From positions 1-35,973 of the IMG/VR virus record IMGVR_UViG_3300014890_000016: a stretch of DNA of 35,973 bases; one strand, 5' to 3'. This stretch comes from a virus. Its lineage: Duplodnaviria > Heunggongvirae > Uroviricota > Caudoviricetes. Made by a program: the position numbers and the translations under genes. Of this stretch, positions 5,851 through 10,749 are shown in pieces. The notes under the pieces are model-generated. The model had not been told where the DNA came from, did no database searches, and saw nothing but the letters and a program-made list of their open reading frames with translations. The number at the start of each line of letters is the position of its first letter. The first letter of the stretch is position 1.

Positions 5851-8673
5851 ATGACGGCAGAGTACATCAGGGACTGGCAACAACCGCGCCACGCAGTGGG
5901 GCGTGAAGGAACGGGGATCCCCGCTCCTGAATCCGCGCTTTCCTCCTGGCTGGGTGCCTACCGGGTAGAGAACGAGCGCCGCCAGGAAATGGCTGATGCG
6001 GCGTTCTCCGCCACGCCGCTGGGCAACCTGATTAATAAAAGCCTGGACGCACAGGAAAAACAGGACAAAACCATCACACTGGCAGGAGACGCCAGAAAAC
6101 AGGCACGCGGCGCGGTGGGTGAAGCCATGGTCTCGCTGCGCCTGCTGCCGTCCTATCTGCGCGATCCGCTTATTCGCCACCTCTCCTTCCTGCGCAAAAA
6201 ACAGGAAGCTGATCGCCGGAAAGGCAAAAAGAGCTGGCAGGCGGAACGCTATGCACGCGGAACCCTGCGCAAAATATTCGAACGTCTGGATCGCACTGAC
6301 GGACGCTGGCTGACACCGGGTTATCGCTCCCTTGCCGGACGCGAACGCCTGGACGATTTGCTTTACCTGCCGCAGCTCAACAAACACCAGATACAGACGC
6401 TGGCCACCATGACGGCGGCGATGTTCAGCAGCACCTTCGAAAAACTCTGCGATGGCTTTGGCGCGACCGATGGCGAACTGACCATGGATGTAACGCTGAA
6501 GGCGTATCAGATGCTGGCCCGCATGGCGTTACACCTGCACATCATGCCTCCACATTATGACGCACTGACAACAGATAAAGACCGGAGGAACGAACCGGAC
6601 ACGGAGCTGCTGCCGGGCGCAATCCTTCGCCTGACCTGTGCGGAATGGTGGAAACGCAAACTGTGGCTGTTACGTTGCGAGTGGAGAGAAGAACAACTCC
6701 GCGCCGCCTGTCTGGTTTCCAGAAAAACATCACCCTATCTGAGCCAGGACGCGTTAAGCGAGTTTCGCGCACAGCGCGAGAAAACACGCGATTTCCTGAA
6801 AAGTTTCATACTGGAAAATGAAGACGGGTTCACGATTGATCTCGAGACGGTGTATTACGCGGGAGTAAGTAACCCGGTTCACCGTAAGGCAGAAATGATG
6901 GCCACCATGAAGGGGCTGGAACTTCTGGCCGAAGCCCGTGGCGACAAAGCGGTGTTTCTTACTGTCACCTGCCCGTCAAAATACCACGCCACAACGGAGA
7001 ACGGTCATCCGAATCCCAAATGGAACGGGGCCACAATGCGCGACTCCAGCGATTACCTGGTTAACACGTTTTTTGCGGCGGTCCGCAAAAAACTGAACCG
7101 CGACGGCCTGCGCTGGTATGGCATCCGCACGGTGGAGCCTCATCATGACGGCACCGTGCACTGGCATATGATGGTCTTTGCACATCCGGAAGAAATCGAC
7201 AGCATCGTGGCCATCACCCGCGATATTGCCATTCAGGAAGACCGCCACGAGCTGGGCAATGATATTACTCCGCGCTTTAAGGCGGAGTATGTCGACGGCT
7301 CAAAAGGCACACCAACCAGCTATATCGCGACCTACATCGGAAAGAACCTGGACAGCCGCGCCGTGGATGGCATCGACCCGAAAACGGGCAAGCCACGCGT
7401 TGACCACGAAACCGGAAAATCAATGGCCGAGAGTGTGGAGCGCGCCATCGGCTGGGCGCGCCTTCACCGGGTCCGCCAGTTCCAGTTCTTTGGCATCCCC
7501 TCCCGTCAGGTGTGGCGTGAACTGCGCCGCCTTGCCAGCCAGATGGCACGCAACCCGGAAGGCCCGCAACGACTGAAGGATGACGCAATGGATGCAGTGC
7601 TCGCTGCCGCTGATGCCGGGTGTTTTGCCTCCTACATTGAAAAACAGGGCGGCGTACTTGTTCCACGCAAAGACTACCTGATTCGCACCGCCTACGACCT
7701 CGCAGATGAGCTGAACGATTACGGCGAACAGAGCGTACAGATTTACGGGATCTGGTCACCACTCATCGGGGAGTCTTCCCGTGTGTGCACACATCCGGAT
7801 AACTGGAAGCTGGTAAGACGTAAACCGGAAGCGGAAGACAGCGCCCGCGAAAATGGTTTTGACCTTCAGGGCGGCCCTGCCGCCCCTTGGACTCGTGGCA
7901 ATAACTGTCCCCGTGTACAGGAAACGGACAACAACGGGACAGAACAGCCGGAAGAACGGCCAGCACCGTGGCCGCAGCTCCCTGACGGCGTTGAAGTGAA
8001 CGAATGGATGCGCTCACTGAAACGGCACGAACGCCGGGCGCTGATGCGTTCGCTTCGTGACAAACAGGCAAAAAACAGCAGTGATGAAATGCAGAGCTGG
8101 ACACAGAGCCGCAAACAACAGCGGCCTTTGCCTGATAACCACGAGTTACTCGCTAAAGAATGGCGGGAGTCTGCTGAATCTCTCGGCCTGCATATCGGTG
8201 AACAGCAGATACTGCACCTGTTACGGGGCGGCAGTCTGTACGTTGACGGCAGCATCATTGCACCGCAGGGATTTGAAATTGTGCGCAAACCGGATACCCG
8301 CCCGGACAGCCGAATCGCGCAGCTCTGGCAGCGCCTGAGCCGTAATCACGGCGTAAGCAGCACGGAGATCCGTCATAACCCGGTCGCCAGCTATCTGGCA
8401 CAGCTGGGGGCATCAGACCCCGAAGCCGCCGCACGCCTGGCATCCACACTTCAGCAGGACCAGAACCCTATGAAAACACCCGTTACCGTGCTTTCTGACA
8501 TGCTGCGCGCCATCCGTGACGCAGAGCACGCACAGAGAATCAGTGAAACCACTGAACGCGCTCGCCGCAAAGCAGACCTGCTGCGGGGTGGCCTGACCAG
8601 TGGAAACAAAAAACAGACAGAAACGGGATTCACAAATCCCGTAAATGAGCAAAAAACGCGCCGCGATATATGA
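5851..8673 (+). CDS. A: Replication initiation endonuclease, P2 gpA-like (rolling-circle HUH nickase)
   Basis: 940 aa; HUH motif region TVHWHMMVF and tyrosine motif YIATYIGKN typical of the P2 A family; about 180 aa longer at the C-terminus than P2 A. Confidence 0.9.
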   Translation: MTAEYIRDWQQPRHAVGREGTGIPAPESALSSWLGAYRVENERRQEMADAAFSATPLGNLINKSLDAQEKQDKTITLAGDARKQARGAVGEAMVSLRLLPSYLRDPLIRHLSFLRKKQEADRRKGKKSWQAERYARGTLRKIFERLDRTDGRWLTPGYRSLAGRERLDDLLYLPQLNKHQIQTLATMTAAMFSSTFEKLCDGFGATDGELTMDVTLKAYQMLARMALHLHIMPPHYDALTTDKDRRNEPDTELLPGAILRLTCAEWWKRKLWLLRCEWREEQLRAACLVSRKTSPYLSQDALSEFRAQREKTRDFLKSFILENEDGFTIDLETVYYAGVSNPVHRKAEMMATMKGLELLAEARGDKAVFLTVTCPSKYHATTENGHPNPKWNGATMRDSSDYLVNTFFAAVRKKLNRDGLRWYGIRTVEPHHDGTVHWHMMVFAHPEEIDSIVAITRDIAIQEDRHELGNDITPRFKAEYVDGSKGTPTSYIATYIGKNLDSRAVDGIDPKTGKPRVDHETGKSMAESVERAIGWARLHRVRQFQFFGIPSRQVWRELRRLASQMARNPEGPQRLKDDAMDAVLAAADAGCFASYIEKQGGVLVPRKDYLIRTAYDLADELNDYGEQSVQIYGIWSPLIGESSRVCTHPDNWKLVRRKPEAEDSARENGFDLQGGPAAPWTRGNNCPRVQETDNNGTEQPEERPAPWPQLPDGVEVNEWMRSLKRHERRALMRSLRDKQAKNSSDEMQSWTQSRKQQRPLPDNHELLAKEWRESAESLGLHIGEQQILHLLRGGSLYVDGSIIAPQGFEIVRKPDTRPDSRIAQLWQRLSRNHGVSSTEIRHNPVASYLAQLGASDPEAAARLASTLQQDQNPMKTPVTVLSDMLRAIRDAEHAQRISETTERARRKADLLRGGLTSGNKKQTETGFTNPVNEQKTRRDI

Positions 8674-8715
8674 AGCGCGCATAAAACAGGCAAAAACGGG
8701 ATTTCAGAATCCCGT
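8623..8715. repeat. Two copies of a 20-bp palindrome ACGGGATT-N4-AATCCCGT
   Basis: Copy 1 at 8623..8642 lies inside the last codons of gpA; copy 2 at 8696..8715 is just upstream of the parM-like gene. Confidence 0.4.
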
Positions 8716-8749
8716 AAACGATTAATTAATCAACATAAGGAAAAGCGAC

Positions 8750-9709
8750 ATGAAAATTTGTATCGACGACGGCTCCACCAACATCAAGCTGGCATGGACT
8801 AAGAACGGCGAACGCCGCAACGCCATCAGCCCGAACAGCTTCAAGTCGGAATGGTCTGCGCCGTTCGGTGGCACGCAGCCCGCGAACTACATGCTTGATG
8901 GCGTGCGCTATGGTTTTGATCCGGTCAGCGATCGCTTTGTCCAGACGACCGACACGCAATACCAGTACAGCGATGTGAATGTCATTGCCATTCATCACGC
9001 GCTGGTCAAATCAGGCATCACGCCACAGGAGGTGGATGTGGTTGTCACCCTGCCACTGAGCGAGTATTTCGACACAAACGCACAGCCGGACATGGCCAAC
9101 ATCAACCGCAAAAAAGCGAACGTTATGCGCCCGGTGGAGTACCAGAACGGCGAAGCATTCACTATCCGTAACGTACGGGTTATGCCTGAATCCATTCCGG
9201 CTGGCTTTAAGGCACTGGCTGACATGAGTCCGTTTGAATCCCTGCTGATTGTGGATTTGGGCGGAACCACGCTGGATGTGGCAAAGGTTCAGGGGCAACT
9301 GGCAGGTATCAGCCAGGTGTTTTGCGATCCACACGTAGGCGTTTCCCTGATGGCCGATGCAGTACTCTCGGTGATGGCCGCTAACGGTATGCGTACCAGT
9401 CACCACATCGCCAATACCATTATCGAACATCGCCATGATGAAGCCTGGCTGCGCCAGCACATCCACAATGACACGCATTACGCCAGCCTGATGGCGGTTA
9501 TTCGTGAAAAGGAAGAAACACTGAAACAACGCGTGATCCGCGCGCTGGCGGTTTTTTCGGGTTACGGGCGGGTGATGGTTGTCGGTGGAGGGGCGGAGAT
9601 TGTAGCACCCGCTATCCGCGAAGCCTGCGGAGTTAATGCGACTTTCATCGCGGACGGGGTGCCACAGTTTGCTCTGGTTAATGGGCTGTACGCAATGGAC
9701 AAGGAGTAA
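8750..9709 (+). CDS. parM: Actin-like ATPase of the ParM/StbA family
   Basis: 319 aa; MKICIDDGSTNIKLAW, ISPNSFKSEW, QYSDVNVIAIHHAL, VMPESIPAG, IVDLGGTTLD, SGYGRVMVVGGGAE and LVNGLY align along the whole length with plasmid R1 ParM as recalled. Confidence 0.85.
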   Translation: MKICIDDGSTNIKLAWTKNGERRNAISPNSFKSEWSAPFGGTQPANYMLDGVRYGFDPVSDRFVQTTDTQYQYSDVNVIAIHHALVKSGITPQEVDVVVTLPLSEYFDTNAQPDMANINRKKANVMRPVEYQNGEAFTIRNVRVMPESIPAGFKALADMSPFESLLIVDLGGTTLDVAKVQGQLAGISQVFCDPHVGVSLMADAVLSVMAANGMRTSHHIANTIIEHRHDEAWLRQHIHNDTHYASLMAVIREKEETLKQRVIRALAVFSGYGRVMVVGGGAEIVAPAIREACGVNATFIADGVPQFALVNGLYAMDKE

Positions 9710-9713
9710 ACCA

Positions 9714-10028
9714 ATGACGACACCAACCAGACGGATAAGTTTCTATCTGAAGCCTGCGGCCGTCAAGAGTGAACAGGAGGCGTGCAATTACCTCGACAGC
9801 CTGCCAGCCTCCGAACGCAGCCGCGCGCAACGCGCGGCTTTTCTGGCCGGACTGGCTCTTATAAAACGCACCCCCGCGTTGGCGTATTCGCTGGCAGAAT
9901 GGTCAGAAGACGAAATACGGATGCCATCGCTACCAGCACAGCCTGAAAAACCGGCGCAACCAGCAGCAGACAGCGCCCCCCATATGCAGCAGGTGAAAAA
10001 GAATATTCAGGCGTTTTTCCCGAAGTGA
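9714..10028 (+). CDS. parR: ParR-like DNA-binding adaptor
   Basis: 104 aa directly after parM with AAGGAG Shine-Dalgarno; N-terminus RRISFYLKP...LDSLPASERSRAQRAAFLAGLAL parallels R1 ParR (RRTIAFKLNP...LDSIPQGERSRLNRAALTAGLAL). Confidence 0.7.
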   Translation: MTTPTRRISFYLKPAAVKSEQEACNYLDSLPASERSRAQRAAFLAGLALIKRTPALAYSLAEWSEDEIRMPSLPAQPEKPAQPAADSAPHMQQVKKNIQAFFPK

Positions 10029-10042
10029 AAACAGGAGTAACT

Positions 10043-10330
10043 ATGCCCACCATTACCAAAGAATGGTTACAACGTAAAATCACAGAGTTTAAATCGTGGC
10101 GCGAAGACATCCCGTTCGGTCTTGATGAAGACGATCACAATATGTTAATCGCACTGGAAATCGCACTTGCATCACTGGAAGCAGAGCCAGTGGCATGGAT
10201 GCACGCAAATAATCCTATTGGAATACCGGCGATAACAAGAAGTAAAGATGTTGCAGACAGCTGGCGCTCTAAGGGATGGAATGTATTGCCTCTTTATTCA
10301 CTGACCCGCTCCATCAATTTATGCCATTAA
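10043..10330 (+). CDS. Hypothetical protein
   Basis: 95-aa ORF with CAGGAG Shine-Dalgarno; no family recognised. Confidence 0.5.
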   Translation: MPTITKEWLQRKITEFKSWREDIPFGLDEDDHNMLIALEIALASLEAEPVAWMHANNPIGIPAITRSKDVADSWRSKGWNVLPLYSLTRSINLCH

Positions 10331-10341
10331 TGGAAGTAATC

Positions 10342-10701
10342 ATGATGAAAGATAATTCCGGAAGCCAGCGTGCATCAGTTGCAGTTATGGTAATGATTAA
10401 ATTTGTGAAACAGTACACCGGAAAGCCAATCTCACTCCGGCAATTAAGCAAAGAAACCGTTTCACTGTCATATCTGGAGCAAATATTCAGATATTTACGG
10501 GAAAGTAGCTTGGTAAAAGCCACACGCGGCCCGGGTGGTGGATATATCCCAACAAAAGAAAATTACAGTGTTGGTGATATTGTCCGGGCAATGAAATGTT
10601 CCGGATTATATACACAGCACGTTATTCTGGCTGCACTGGATAATATTTCTTTAACCAGCCTGCAAGAAGACACAAATTATCAGTTGTCTGCCATTGAATA
10701 A
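10342..10701 (+). CDS. Rrf2-family winged-helix transcriptional regulator, short form
   Basis: ISLRQLSKETVSLSYLEQIFRYLRESSLVKATRGPGGGY matches the Rrf2/IscR signature; no Cys cluster, so probably not Fe-S binding. Start could also be the ATG at 10330. Confidence 0.65.
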   Translation: MMKDNSGSQRASVAVMVMIKFVKQYTGKPISLRQLSKETVSLSYLEQIFRYLRESSLVKATRGPGGGYIPTKENYSVGDIVRAMKCSGLYTQHVILAALDNISLTSLQEDTNYQLSAIE

Positions 10702-10704
10702 GAA

Positions 10705-10749
10705 AACCCGGAACGGGTGCGCAAATTCTTTGTGCGCCCGTTCCGGGTT
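10705..10749. terminator. Hairpin between convergent operons, terminator mainly for the leftward operon
   Basis: 13-bp perfect arms AACCCGGAACGGG / CCCGTTCCGGGTT; a T-rich tract follows only on the minus strand. Confidence 0.5.

What the first reader, a model, noticed from the sequence alone, without database searches (positions are those of the whole stretch)
8623..8715. Paired palindromes spanning the gpA stop, upstream of parM
Two copies of ACGGGATT-N4-AATCCCGT sit about 73 bp apart, one encoding the last residues of gpA and one in the parM leader. They are not plus-strand terminators (no T-run follows). They could be ParR binding sites, although R1 parC uses ten short direct repeats, or part of the replication origin, which in P2 lies near the 3' end of A.
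Basis: seen in the sequence. Interest (0 to 1): 0.5.

Follow-up and report, generated by a model that had tools for sequence, protein, structure and literature searches.

The report
Two-dyad centromere of a prophage ParMR
The two palindromes are real and are most likely the DNA sites where the prophage's own partition adaptor protein ParR binds, a compact two-site version of a plasmid centromere carried by P2-like prophages found in about a quarter of complete E. coli genomes.

Summary
ACGGGATT-N4-AATCCCGT occurs at 8623-8642 and 8696-8715. Each copy lies inside a 42-nt direct repeat, and the copies are 73 bp apart. The window is a P88-like (P2-like) phage with gpA, ParM and an R1-family ParR. 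Comparative evidence puts both palindromes in the parMR cassette, not in gpA. Close gpA relatives with other cargo lack them. The shared gpA DNA ends at about 8567-8575, and in another gpA lineage the similarity begins at about 8606. In a Hafnia relative the gpA stop codon falls inside the loop of palindrome 1. Both repeats are constrained at the nucleotide level. In outgroup phages (ParM 62% identical) only GGG-N10-CCC half-sites survive. They sit at the same distance from parM and 72-73 bp apart, with almost no hairpin potential left. The dyad pair is present in 8 of 8 loci whose ParR strand reads RR(I/V)SFYL and in 0 of 81 loci with other strands. The best reading is a two-dyad parC/operator bound by ParR (confidence 0.68; binding not shown). 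The replication-origin and terminator readings are rejected. This is a new variant of a known kind and is moderately interesting.

The parts
5851..8673 (+). gpA replication endonuclease (940 aa). Its last ~22-33 codons are encoded by cassette DNA rather than by shared gpA DNA.
   Evidence: Pfam PF05840, E=2e-131. Homology with gpA relatives that carry other cargo ends at about 8567-8575. Homology with the L290 cassette begins at about 8606.
8607..8648 (.). 42-nt repeat, copy 1 (A-tract segment plus dyad 1), inside the gpA reading frame.
   Evidence: Direct repeat family D1. Third-codon positions are polymorphic at 3/14 sites against 256/398 in the background (Fisher p=0.0016), and pi at positions 1+2 equals pi at position 3, so the constraint is on the nucleotides.
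8623..8642 (.). Dyad 1: ACGGGATT-CACA-AATCCCGT. Conserved core GGG 8625-8627 and CCC 8638-8640.
   Evidence: GGG-N10-CCC is kept in 114/118 haplotypes and in the outgroups L293 and L294.
8649..8679 (.). 31-nt spacer holding the gpA stop (8671-8673), a short GC-rich inverted repeat (CGCGC 8657-8661 / GCGCG 8675-8679) and weak promoter-like hexamers.
   Evidence: Reading; central stem in the fold; candidate hexamers ATGAGC/TATATG at 7/12 matches; sequence variable between lineages.
8680..8721 (.). 42-nt repeat, copy 2 (A-tract segment plus dyad 2), non-coding.
   Evidence: The non-coding stretch 8674-8749 is polymorphic at 28% of sites against 64% of synonymous-position sites (Mann-Whitney p=4e-10).
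8696..8715 (.). Dyad 2: ACGGGATT-TCAG-AATCCCGT. Core GGG 8698-8700 and CCC 8711-8713. Overlaps a weak -35-like TTCAGA at 8703-8708.
   Evidence: GGG-N10-CC is kept in 117/118 haplotypes, and 18 have CCT instead of CCC. The loop is hypervariable (pi 0.23) and the stems are constrained (pi 0.049).
8722..8749 (+). parM leader: conserved ATTAATCAA motif (-10-like ATTAAT at 8725-8730) and Shine-Dalgarno AAGGA at 8737-8741.
   Evidence: Low diversity (pi 0.028). Motif conserved in L293, L294 and, with changes, L290. Promoter candidate TTCAGA-16-ATTAAT at 8/12 matches.
8750..9709 (+). parM, actin-like partition ATPase (319 aa).
   Evidence: PF06406 E=1e-81 and PF21523 E=3e-68. 98-99% identical across the P88-type loci retrieved.
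9714..10028 (+). parR, ribbon-helix-helix adaptor (104 aa). N-terminal strand TRRISFYLKP, hypervariable linker, conserved C-terminal tail NIxALFPE.
   Evidence: PF10784 E=7e-25. Residues 6-63 match pB171 ParR 2JD3, E=0.003. Alignment of 21 variants.

Best explanation
Positions about 8606-8749 are the cis-acting site (parC-type centromere, and probably also the operator) of the prophage's ParM/ParR partition cassette. The two palindromes are its two core ParR-binding dyads. Proposed mechanism (inferred, not shown): each 20-bp dyad offers two inverted half-sites, CGGGA and TCCCG, centred 13 bp apart. Each dyad would be bound by a pair of ribbon-helix-helix ParR dimers. The dyads are 73 bp apart, which is 7.0 helical turns at the 10.4-bp period of the surrounding A-tracts, so both complexes would lie on one face of bent DNA. 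As in R1 parC, the ParR C-terminal tails would be displayed together to capture ParM filament ends. Dyad 2 overlaps a weak promoter-like element just upstream of parM, so ParR binding there probably also represses parMR. What is shown: the anatomy, cassette membership, nucleotide-level constraint, conserved geometry across lineages, loss of hairpin potential in outgroups, and co-occurrence with one ParR strand type. What is inferred: ParR binding, stoichiometry, centromere activity and autoregulation.
For: (1) Context: ParM (PF06406/PF21523) and an R1-family ParR (PF10784; N-terminal domain matches pB171 ParR 2JD3) lie immediately downstream. Type II parC sites lie upstream of parM (PMC5016525, PMC2241845). 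(2) Cassette membership: gpA relatives L208, L209 and L210 carry other cargo, have no parMR and have no palindromes. Shared DNA ends at about 8567-8575. In L290, a different gpA lineage, similarity starts at about 8606, the left edge of repeat 1. In L288 the gpA stop is in the loop of dyad 1 and the dyad is read in another frame. In L293 the dyads lie in a 167-aa ORF with no detectable similarity to gpA. (3) In IMG/VR the motif occurs 147 times just upstream of parM; the other 10 matches were 5 at truncated contig ends in the same context and 5 unrelated palindromes in 4 contigs. (4) Nucleotide-level constraint on both repeats. (5) Outgroups with only 62% ParM identity keep GGG-N10-CCC at -128/-55 and -131/-59 from the parM ATG, spaced 73 and 72 bp. 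In the window they are at -125/-52, spaced 73 bp. That pair is the only one with 72-73 bp spacing among the 10 GGG-N10-CCC sites in the 36-kb window. (6) Hairpin energy decays from -10/-11 to about -5 kcal/mol in the outgroups while the half-sites stay, which fits duplex recognition. (7) Association with the ParR strand: RR(I/V)SFYL 8/8, seven other strand types 0/81. Serratia-type RKISFYL has a different dyad layout. (8) Sense-strand A-tracts are phased at 10.4 bp, ranking 1 of 7169 windows here and 1 of 732 in R100-type parC. R1 parC is intrinsically curved (PMC2241845). (9) ParR is the only DNA-binding protein that always accompanies the element; the cargo to its right differs between phages.
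Against: There is no binding or stabilisation experiment. Characterised relatives use arrays of 10-11 bp direct iterons (R1/R100), and the uncharacterised pEL60, D6 and L306 loci show the same kind of array, so a two-dyad site has no precedent in this ParR family. The strand-type association is confounded by shared ancestry: the positives amount to about three deep lineages. Within the P88 clade, palindrome variants do not track the two ParR N-domain types. The perfect palindrome is degraded in about half of the loci, 18 of 118 haplotypes have CCT instead of CCC in dyad 2, and one locus (L020) has lost a copy by deletion between the repeats. No consensus sigma-70 promoter is found. Nearly all copies are in chromosomally integrated prophages (1441 of 1443 places), where a centromere has no obvious job.
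Confidence: 0.68

Rival explanations
1. Minus-strand intrinsic terminators: two tandem hairpin-plus-U-tract terminators that stop antisense or late-operon read-through before it enters gene A.
For: On the minus strand each 8-bp stem is followed by a T-rich run, and the consensus scan lists both. Each hairpin is about -10 kcal/mol. The A-runs, which are T-runs on the minus strand, are highly conserved.
Against: No minus-strand gene ends within 2.4 kb; parM and parR are on the plus strand. A separate terminator-like site already lies at 10718-10706. In about 40% of P88-type loci dyad 2 carries A.C mismatches on the minus strand. In L293 and L294 the hairpin is reduced to 3-4 bp with a 10-nt loop (about -5 kcal/mol) while position and spacing are kept. 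No compensatory stem changes were seen.
Confidence: 0.06
2. Plus-strand RNA elements: hairpins in the gpA-parM transcript that act as processing sites, mRNA stabilisers or translational regulators.
For: Stable local hairpins form on the plus strand (-10.7 to -11 kcal/mol, z -3 to -4.8). The common dyad-2 variants keep pairing through G.U on the plus strand. Loops vary while stems are constrained.
Against: Dyad 1 lies inside the translated gpA frame, so ribosomes would unfold it. The common dyad-1 variants give A.C mismatches on the plus strand. There were no compensatory changes. Hairpin potential is lost in the outgroups although geometry is kept. No Rfam family matches at E<=1. An exact 72-73 bp spacing and a 10.4-bp phasing are properties of duplex DNA, not of RNA.
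Confidence: 0.07
3. Operator only, or a site for another protein: the dyads regulate parMR transcription through ParR or a conserved host factor, but are not the centromere. The centromere would then be the phased A-tract units or a site elsewhere.
For: Dyad 2 overlaps the best promoter-like candidate, TTCAGA-16-ATTAAT. The A-tract flanks are more invariant than the dyads (pi 0.019 against 0.043-0.049). They resemble R100 iterons of the AAAAC type on the same strand with the same 10.4-bp phase.
Against: In R1 the operator and the centromere are the same iterons (PMC2241845). No other repeated element was found in the cassette. No host-factor consensus was recognised, though that rests on memory only. 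The dyads track ParR type, not host genus.
Confidence: 0.12
4. Part of the gpA-dependent replication origin, or another gpA cis site.
For: The position is at the 3' end of gene A. From my general knowledge, the P2 ori lies inside gene A; I could not retrieve the primary paper.
Against: gpA relatives 88-94% identical over the searched C-terminal part have no such elements and other tails. The elements lie on the cargo side of the mosaic junction. In L293 they lie in an ORF with no detectable similarity to gpA. P2-like phages with Serratia-type ParR lack them.
Confidence: 0.02
5. Functionless relic: a chance palindrome duplicated along with 42 nt of the gpA 3' end.
For: Copy 2 read in another frame gives KQAKTGFQNPVND*, similar to the gpA tail KQTETGFTNPVNE (reading). 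L020 has a fused single copy. The perfect palindromes decay in about half of the loci.
Against: There is significant purifying selection at synonymous and non-coding positions. The dyads are retained with identical spacing in lineages whose flanks are unrelated and whose reading frames differ.
Confidence: 0.03

Closest known systems
parC of plasmid R1/R100 (type II ParMRC partition locus)
   Same: It lies immediately upstream of parM-parR. The ParR is homologous (PF10784; about 41-43% identity over the N-terminal 63 residues). The repeated units form two blocks separated by a 31-39 bp central segment. Sense-strand A-tracts are phased at 10.4 bp in both. R100 iterons (AAAACCC AAAA) resemble the right half of the phage dyads (AATCCCGTAAA; AAACCCAAAAAC in L293).
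   Different: R1 has 5+5 direct 11-bp iterons over 159 bp with a clear promoter in the centre (PMC2241845). Here there are two 20-bp dyads with inverted half-sites, 73 bp apart in about 115 bp, no consensus promoter, and the left half is embedded in the upstream ORF.
pSK41 parC
   Same: From the review PMC5016525 and general knowledge: ParR ribbon-helix-helix dimers bind 10-bp half-repeats, and 20-bp units take a dimer of dimers. That matches a 20-bp dyad binding two dimers.
   Different: The pSK41 repeats are contiguous tandem direct repeats. The ParR and ParM are very distant. No sequence relation was tested here.
Ribbon-helix-helix operators with inverted sub-sites (Arc, CopG, omega of pSM19035)
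   Same: From general knowledge, not tested here: these proteins bind as pairs of dimers to sub-sites in inverted or direct orientation roughly one helical turn apart. The phage dyads would work in the same way.
   Different: They belong to different protein families, and only omega is a centromere-binding protein. The 13-bp centre-to-centre distance and the 73-bp pairing of two dyads are specific to this element.
'Putative plasmid partitioning system' in the gpA-gpQ hotspot of E. coli P2-like phages (Rousset et al. 2022, PMC9122126)
   Same: It is the same cassette at the same locus. They report it in about a quarter of P2-like phages; here the junction is in 1304 of 5426 complete E. coli genomes.
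   Different: A term search of that paper's main text found only this passing mention of the partitioning genes and no description of a cis site. The cis element and its overlap with the gpA 3' end appear to be undescribed in the literature I could search.

Membership tests
Type II (ParMRC) partition locus: parC centromere | Lies immediately upstream of a parM-parR operon | tested here: met
   The dyads are at -125 and -52 from the parM ATG. ParM and ParR were identified by Pfam.
Type II (ParMRC) partition locus: parC centromere | Cognate actin-like ParM and ribbon-helix-helix ParR with a C-terminal ParM-binding tail | tested here: met
   PF06406/PF21523, PF10784, match to 2JD3, conserved tail NIxALFPE. 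The tail's function is inferred.
Type II (ParMRC) partition locus: parC centromere | Array of tandem direct 10-11 bp iterons, typically 4-10 of them | tested here: not met
   There are only two 42-nt repeats, each with one dyad. About 9 phased AAA(C/T) units exist, but they are not clear iterons. R100, pEL60, D6 and L306 do show such arrays.
Type II (ParMRC) partition locus: parC centromere | Helically phased, intrinsically bent DNA | tested here: met
   A-tract period 10.4 bp, rank 1 of 7169, the same as R100-type parC. 73 bp is 7.0 turns at that period. Curvature itself was not measured.
Type II (ParMRC) partition locus: parC centromere | Site co-varies with ParR specificity | tested here: met
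   RR(I/V)SFYL 8/8 against other strand types 0/81. Serratia-type ParR has a different dyad layout. The comparison is confounded by phylogeny, and there is no covariation within the P88 clade.
Type II (ParMRC) partition locus: parC centromere | Embedded par promoter repressed by ParR | tested here: inconclusive
   Only weak candidates were found, the best at 8/12 matches and overlapping dyad 2.
Type II (ParMRC) partition locus: parC centromere | ParR binding, plasmid stabilisation in cis, incompatibility | not testable with these tools
   Needs EMSA or footprinting and plasmid-loss assays.
Intrinsic (Rho-independent) terminator | GC-rich hairpin followed by a U-tract on the transcribed strand | tested here: inconclusive
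   Not met on the plus strand. Met by consensus on the minus strand in the window.
Intrinsic (Rho-independent) terminator | Hairpin preserved among relatives, with a gene upstream to terminate | tested here: not met
   The hairpin decays to about -5 kcal/mol in L293 and L294 although the site is conserved. There are no compensatory changes. No minus-strand gene lies within 2.4 kb.
P2-type replication origin (gpA nick site) | Present in every phage that uses the same gpA, and located in shared gpA DNA | tested here: not met
   Absent from L208, L209 and L210, which have 88-94% identical gpA C-terminal parts. It lies beyond the mosaic junction.

The most novel reading that the evidence does not exclude
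The RR(I/V)SFYL clade of R1-family ParR proteins, fixed in integrating P2-like prophages of Escherichia, Hafnia and Plesiomonas, uses a new centromere architecture. It has two dyad-symmetric sites exactly seven helical turns apart instead of an iteron array. The cassette carries this site into the 3' end of whatever ORF lies upstream, so it supplies that ORF's C-terminal tail and stop codon. Because 1441 of 1443 copies in complete E. coli genomes are chromosomal, the ParR-dyad complex may do something other than plasmid partition. Possibilities are positioning the excised or replicating phage genome, or acting on the chromosome locus itself.
Probability: 0.25. Interest if true: 0.6.

Novelty: new variant of a known kind. 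Interest (0 to 1): 0.45.

Why it matters
The ParMR cassette sits in about 24% of complete E. coli genomes, including O157:H7 and the ST131 strain JJ1886, yet the literature I could search assigns it no centromere and no function. Defining a short candidate site with predicted critical bases (GGG/CCC), a predicted spacing (73 bp) and a predicted reading head (RR(I/V)SFYL) makes the system directly testable. One can ask whether ParR binds, whether the 150-bp fragment plus parMR stabilises a plasmid, and why an integrating phage keeps a partition machine. It would also add a dyad-based variant to the known iteron-based layouts of type II centromeres. Finally, it shows how hotspot cargo in P2-like phages can rewrite the C-terminus of the essential replication protein.

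Tried and rejected
(1) Covariation between ParR type and palindrome variant inside the P88 clade was uninformative. The N-terminal strand is invariant, and both N-domain types pair with all variants. (2) Looking for compensatory stem changes as evidence of RNA structure found none. The one-sided changes favour opposite strands in the two copies. (3) The phage collection and two IMG/VR protein scans returned only the same 98-99% identical clade. Scans with the L293 and L294 ParM found nothing (L293) and one distant locus (L294). (4) The idea of a dispersed repeat or mobile element was rejected: the motif occurs only at this junction. (5) Known RNA families: no Rfam hit at E<=1. (6) Promoter search: nothing at consensus stringency and only weak candidates. 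(7) The idea that copy 2 is or was coding (small ORF 8645-8725, or a frameshifted gpA tail) was not pursued. It has no Shine-Dalgarno sequence, and the dyad is read in a different frame in L288. (8) Literature on the P2 ori nick site could not be retrieved, and PMC2034672 is not held. The ori reading was rejected on comparative grounds instead. (9) A Pfam scan of the cargo ORFs failed on a coordinate error and was not repeated.
Full report
1. Observation. The sequence contains ACGGGATTCACAAATCCCGT at 8623-8642 and ACGGGATTTCAGAATCCCGT at 8696-8715. A search allowing three mismatches finds only these two plus one poor match, against 0.14 expected; none of 100 shuffles reached three. Each palindrome is part of a longer 42-nt direct repeat (8607-8648 and 8680-8721, 81% identical, 73 bp start to start). 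The 31 nt that follow each copy are unrelated to each other (reading). The long ORF 5851-8673 ends with TGA at 8671-8673, so copy 1 lies inside it (residues TGFTNPV, about ten codons before the stop). Copy 2 is in the 76-nt gap before the next ORF.

2. Context. The long ORF is a P2-type replication endonuclease gpA (PF05840, E=2e-131). The next ORF, 8750-9709, is ParM (PF06406 and PF21523). ORF 9714-10028 is an R1-family ParR/StbB (PF10784). Residues 6-63 of ParR match the solved pB171 ParR ribbon-helix-helix domain 2JD3. The window is 94-97% identical over 8400-9900 to Escherichia phage P88 and other Xuanwuvirus records. The gpA-parM junction is present in 1304 of 5426 complete E. coli genomes, and 1441 of 1443 places are chromosomal. 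Rousset et al. 2022 noted that about a quarter of E. coli P2-like phages carry a putative plasmid partitioning system in the gpA-gpQ hotspot. A term search of their main text found no description of a cis site (PMC9122126).

3. The elements belong to the parMR cassette, not to gpA. A search with the C-terminal 340 residues of gpA found relatives 88-94% identical that end in three other tails lacking TGFxNPV. Their contigs carry other cargo between gpA and the portal gene: three unknown minus-strand genes, or Dam plus an AAA ATPase, or AAA plus an S8 peptidase. None has parMR and none has the palindromes. The DNA alignment shows that shared gpA sequence stops at about 8567-8575. In L290, whose gpA tail is unrelated, similarity to the window begins at about 8606, the left edge of repeat 1. 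In the Hafnia relative L288 the gpA stop codon lies in the loop of dyad 1 and the dyad is read in another frame. In L293 the dyads lie in a 167-aa ORF with no significant similarity to P88-type gpA. In IMG/VR the motif AACGGGATT-N4-AATCCCGT occurs 147 times just upstream of parM; the other 10 matches were 5 at truncated contig ends in the same context and 5 unrelated palindromes in 4 contigs. So this is not a dispersed repeat, and it cannot be the origin used by gpA, because phages with nearly the same gpA lack it.

4. Selective constraint. I compared 118 unique haplotypes of the P88-type locus. Diversity at four-fold degenerate sites is about 0.10. Inside repeat 1, third-codon positions are polymorphic at 3 of 14 sites, against 256 of 398 in the background (Fisher p=0.0016). 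Diversity at codon positions 1+2 equals that at position 3, so the constraint is on nucleotides, not on protein. The non-coding stretch 8674-8749 is polymorphic at 28% of sites against 64% (p=4e-10). Stems have pi 0.043 and 0.049, and loops 0.083 and 0.226. The A-tract flank 8607-8622 is the most invariant part, at pi 0.019. The perfect 8-bp palindrome is not strictly maintained: 36 of 83 loci for copy 1 and 43 of 83 for copy 2. The changes are one-sided and never compensatory. They leave G.U pairs on opposite strands in the two copies, so there is no consistent RNA-strand signal. One locus (L020) has a single fused copy produced by deletion between the repeats.

5. What is conserved at greater distance. 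The nearest outgroup ParM proteins are 62% identical (Hafnia L293, Plesiomonas L294) and 58% identical (Serratia L295). They also lie downstream of gpA in P2-like phages. L293 and L294 each have exactly two GGG-N10-CCC elements upstream of parM. They sit at -128/-55 and -131/-59 from the ATG and are spaced 73 and 72 bp. In the window the positions are -125/-52 and the spacing is 73 bp. Among the 10 GGG-N10-CCC sites in the 36-kb window, this is the only pair with that spacing. The inner parts of the dyads differ in these outgroups. The predicted hairpin energy falls from -10/-11 kcal/mol (window) to -7 (L288) and about -5 (L293, L294), where only 3-4 pairs close a 10-nt loop. So the half-sites and their geometry are conserved, and the hairpin is not. 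Within the P88 population, strict GGG-N10-CCC is kept in 114 of 118 haplotypes (copy 1) and 99 of 118 (copy 2). Eighteen haplotypes have CCT, and GGG-N10-CC is kept in 117 of 118.

6. Link to ParR. All 21 aligned P88-type ParR variants have an invariant N-terminal strand RRISFYLKP, a hypervariable linker and a conserved C-terminal tail. L293 has RRVSFYLKP and L294 has RRISFYLNP. I pooled the metagenome loci with the loci already in hand. The dyad pair is present in 8 of 8 loci with an RR(I/V)SFYL strand. It is present in 0 of 81 loci with seven other strand types: SRRCSFELFP, RRKITFYLNP, RRKIQFYINP, RKISFYLKP, RKC(L/S)FYIYP, RKKVMIYLRP and KRRTIAFKLNP. The Serratia-type systems (RKISFYLKP; L295, L297) have a different conserved layout instead: two 19-bp arms in inverted orientation about 48 bp apart. 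L306 has classic 11-bp direct iterons in two clusters flanking a promoter. L299 has clusters inverted relative to each other. R100-type, pEL60 and D6 have direct iterons. The association is confounded by common descent, since the positives amount to about three deep lineages. Still, it is what ParR recognition predicts. ParR is also the only DNA-binding protein that always accompanies the element. Inside the P88 clade there is no covariation to exploit.

7. Resemblance to R1 parC. R1 parC has two sets of five 11-bp iterons flanking a 39-bp promoter segment, is intrinsically curved, and binds about one ParR dimer per iteron (PMC2241845, PMC5016525). The phage region is the top-ranked stretch of the window for sense-strand A-tracts phased at 10.4 bp (rank 1 of 7169). 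The R100-type parC gives the same period, on the same strand, also at rank 1 in its locus. The right halves of the dyads (AATCCCGTAAA; AAACCCAAAAAC in L293) resemble R100 iterons (AAAACCCAAAAAC). At the 10.4-bp period, 73 bp is 7.0 turns.

8. Mechanism proposed. The region about 8606-8749 is the parC/operator of the cassette. Each dyad binds a pair of ParR dimers at inverted half-sites centred 13 bp apart. The two dyads lie on the same face of phased, bent DNA and together present ParR tails to ParM filament ends. Dyad 2 overlaps a weak promoter-like element, TTCAGA-16-ATTAAT at 8/12 matches. The ATTAATCAA motif is conserved in the outgroups, so ParR binding may also repress parMR. Binding, stoichiometry, centromere activity and repression are all inferences. 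My confidence is 0.68.

9. Rivals. Minus-strand terminators fit the window. They fail on the missing upstream gene, on the mismatches in about 40% of loci and on the loss of the hairpin in the outgroups. A plus-strand RNA element fails for similar reasons: no Rfam match, and dyad 1 is translated. A role as operator only, or binding by another protein, cannot be excluded (0.12). The origin reading is rejected (section 3). A neutral relic is contradicted by sections 4 and 5.

10. Verdict. The element is a new variant of a known kind: a type II centromere built from two dyads rather than an iteron array, carried into the 3' end of the upstream gene. It is of moderate interest, mainly because the cassette is so common in E. 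coli and its function in an integrating phage is unknown.

Noticed in passing
window 8645-8725: A small ORF (ATG 8645 to TAA 8725, 26 aa, MSKKRAAIYEARIKQAKTGFQNPVND) reads repeat copy 2 in a frame that mimics the gpA tail encoded by copy 1 (KQTETGFTNPVNE). It has no Shine-Dalgarno sequence. It is probably a by-product of the repeat, but a frameshifted gpA tail was not excluded.
   Followed up: partly
window 8657-8661 and 8675-8679: There is a short GC-rich inverted repeat (CGCGC/GCGCG, 13-nt AT-rich loop) in the spacer between the dyads, around the gpA stop codon. L290 (GCGCA/TGCGC) and L288 (CACGTGC/GTGCGTG with wobbles) keep pairing with different sequences, which hints at a third conserved dyad or structure.
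   Followed up: partly
window 9714-10028 (ParR residues about 65-95); DNA similarity to P88 ends at about 9866-9911: The ParR linker is hypervariable (overall identity 48-96% among variants), whereas ParM is 98-99% identical and the ParR N-terminal strand and C-terminal tail are invariant. The mosaic boundary with P88 falls inside parR.
   Followed up: partly
L020 (IMGVR_UViG_2657245439_000011): A natural deletion variant has a single fused repeat copy. gpA then ends in ...KQTKTGFKNPVTD* and parM follows as usual. It is a ready-made one-dyad mutant.
   Followed up: partly
L295 2880-2950 and L297 1384-1450: P2-like phages with Serratia-type ParR (RKISFYLKP) have two 19-bp arms (GGAACGAAATAGAAAAAT / ATTTTTCT.TTTCGTTCC) in inverted orientation about 48 bp apart upstream of parM. 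This is a second, different dyad-type candidate centromere.
   Followed up: partly
L208, L209, L210 (gpA relatives): The same gpA lineage carries alternative hotspot cargo that also rewrites the gpA C-terminal tail: three unknown minus-strand genes; Dam methyltransferase plus an AAA_15/AAA_21 ATPase; an AAA ATPase plus an S8 peptidase. The last two look like defence systems.
   Followed up: no
window 10025-10701: The cargo to the right of parR differs from P88. There is an unknown ORF (10025-10330, probably starting at ATG 10044) and an Rrf2-family winged-helix regulator (10276-10701, PF02082 E=4e-13).
   Followed up: no
window 10706-10718, minus strand: A terminator-like hairpin (ACCCGTTCCGGGT followed by TTTCTTATTC) lies between the Rrf2-like gene and the portal gene. 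It is a plausible end point for leftward late transcription.
   Followed up: no
plasmid record NZ_CP148288.1 (34,461 bp, E. coli from cat); L005 (Vagococcus sp. WN89Y contig): A P88-like phage is deposited as a 34-kb circular plasmid, which could be an episomal form or an assembly of excised phage. An almost identical cassette sits on a 226-kb contig labelled Vagococcus, most likely contamination or mislabelling.
   Followed up: no
L088 751-782 (R100-type parC): The central promoter segment of R100-type parC contains a perfect 9-bp inverted repeat (AAATGGGGT-N14-ACCCCATTT). So dyad symmetry inside an iteron-type parC is not unique to the phage element.
   Followed up: no
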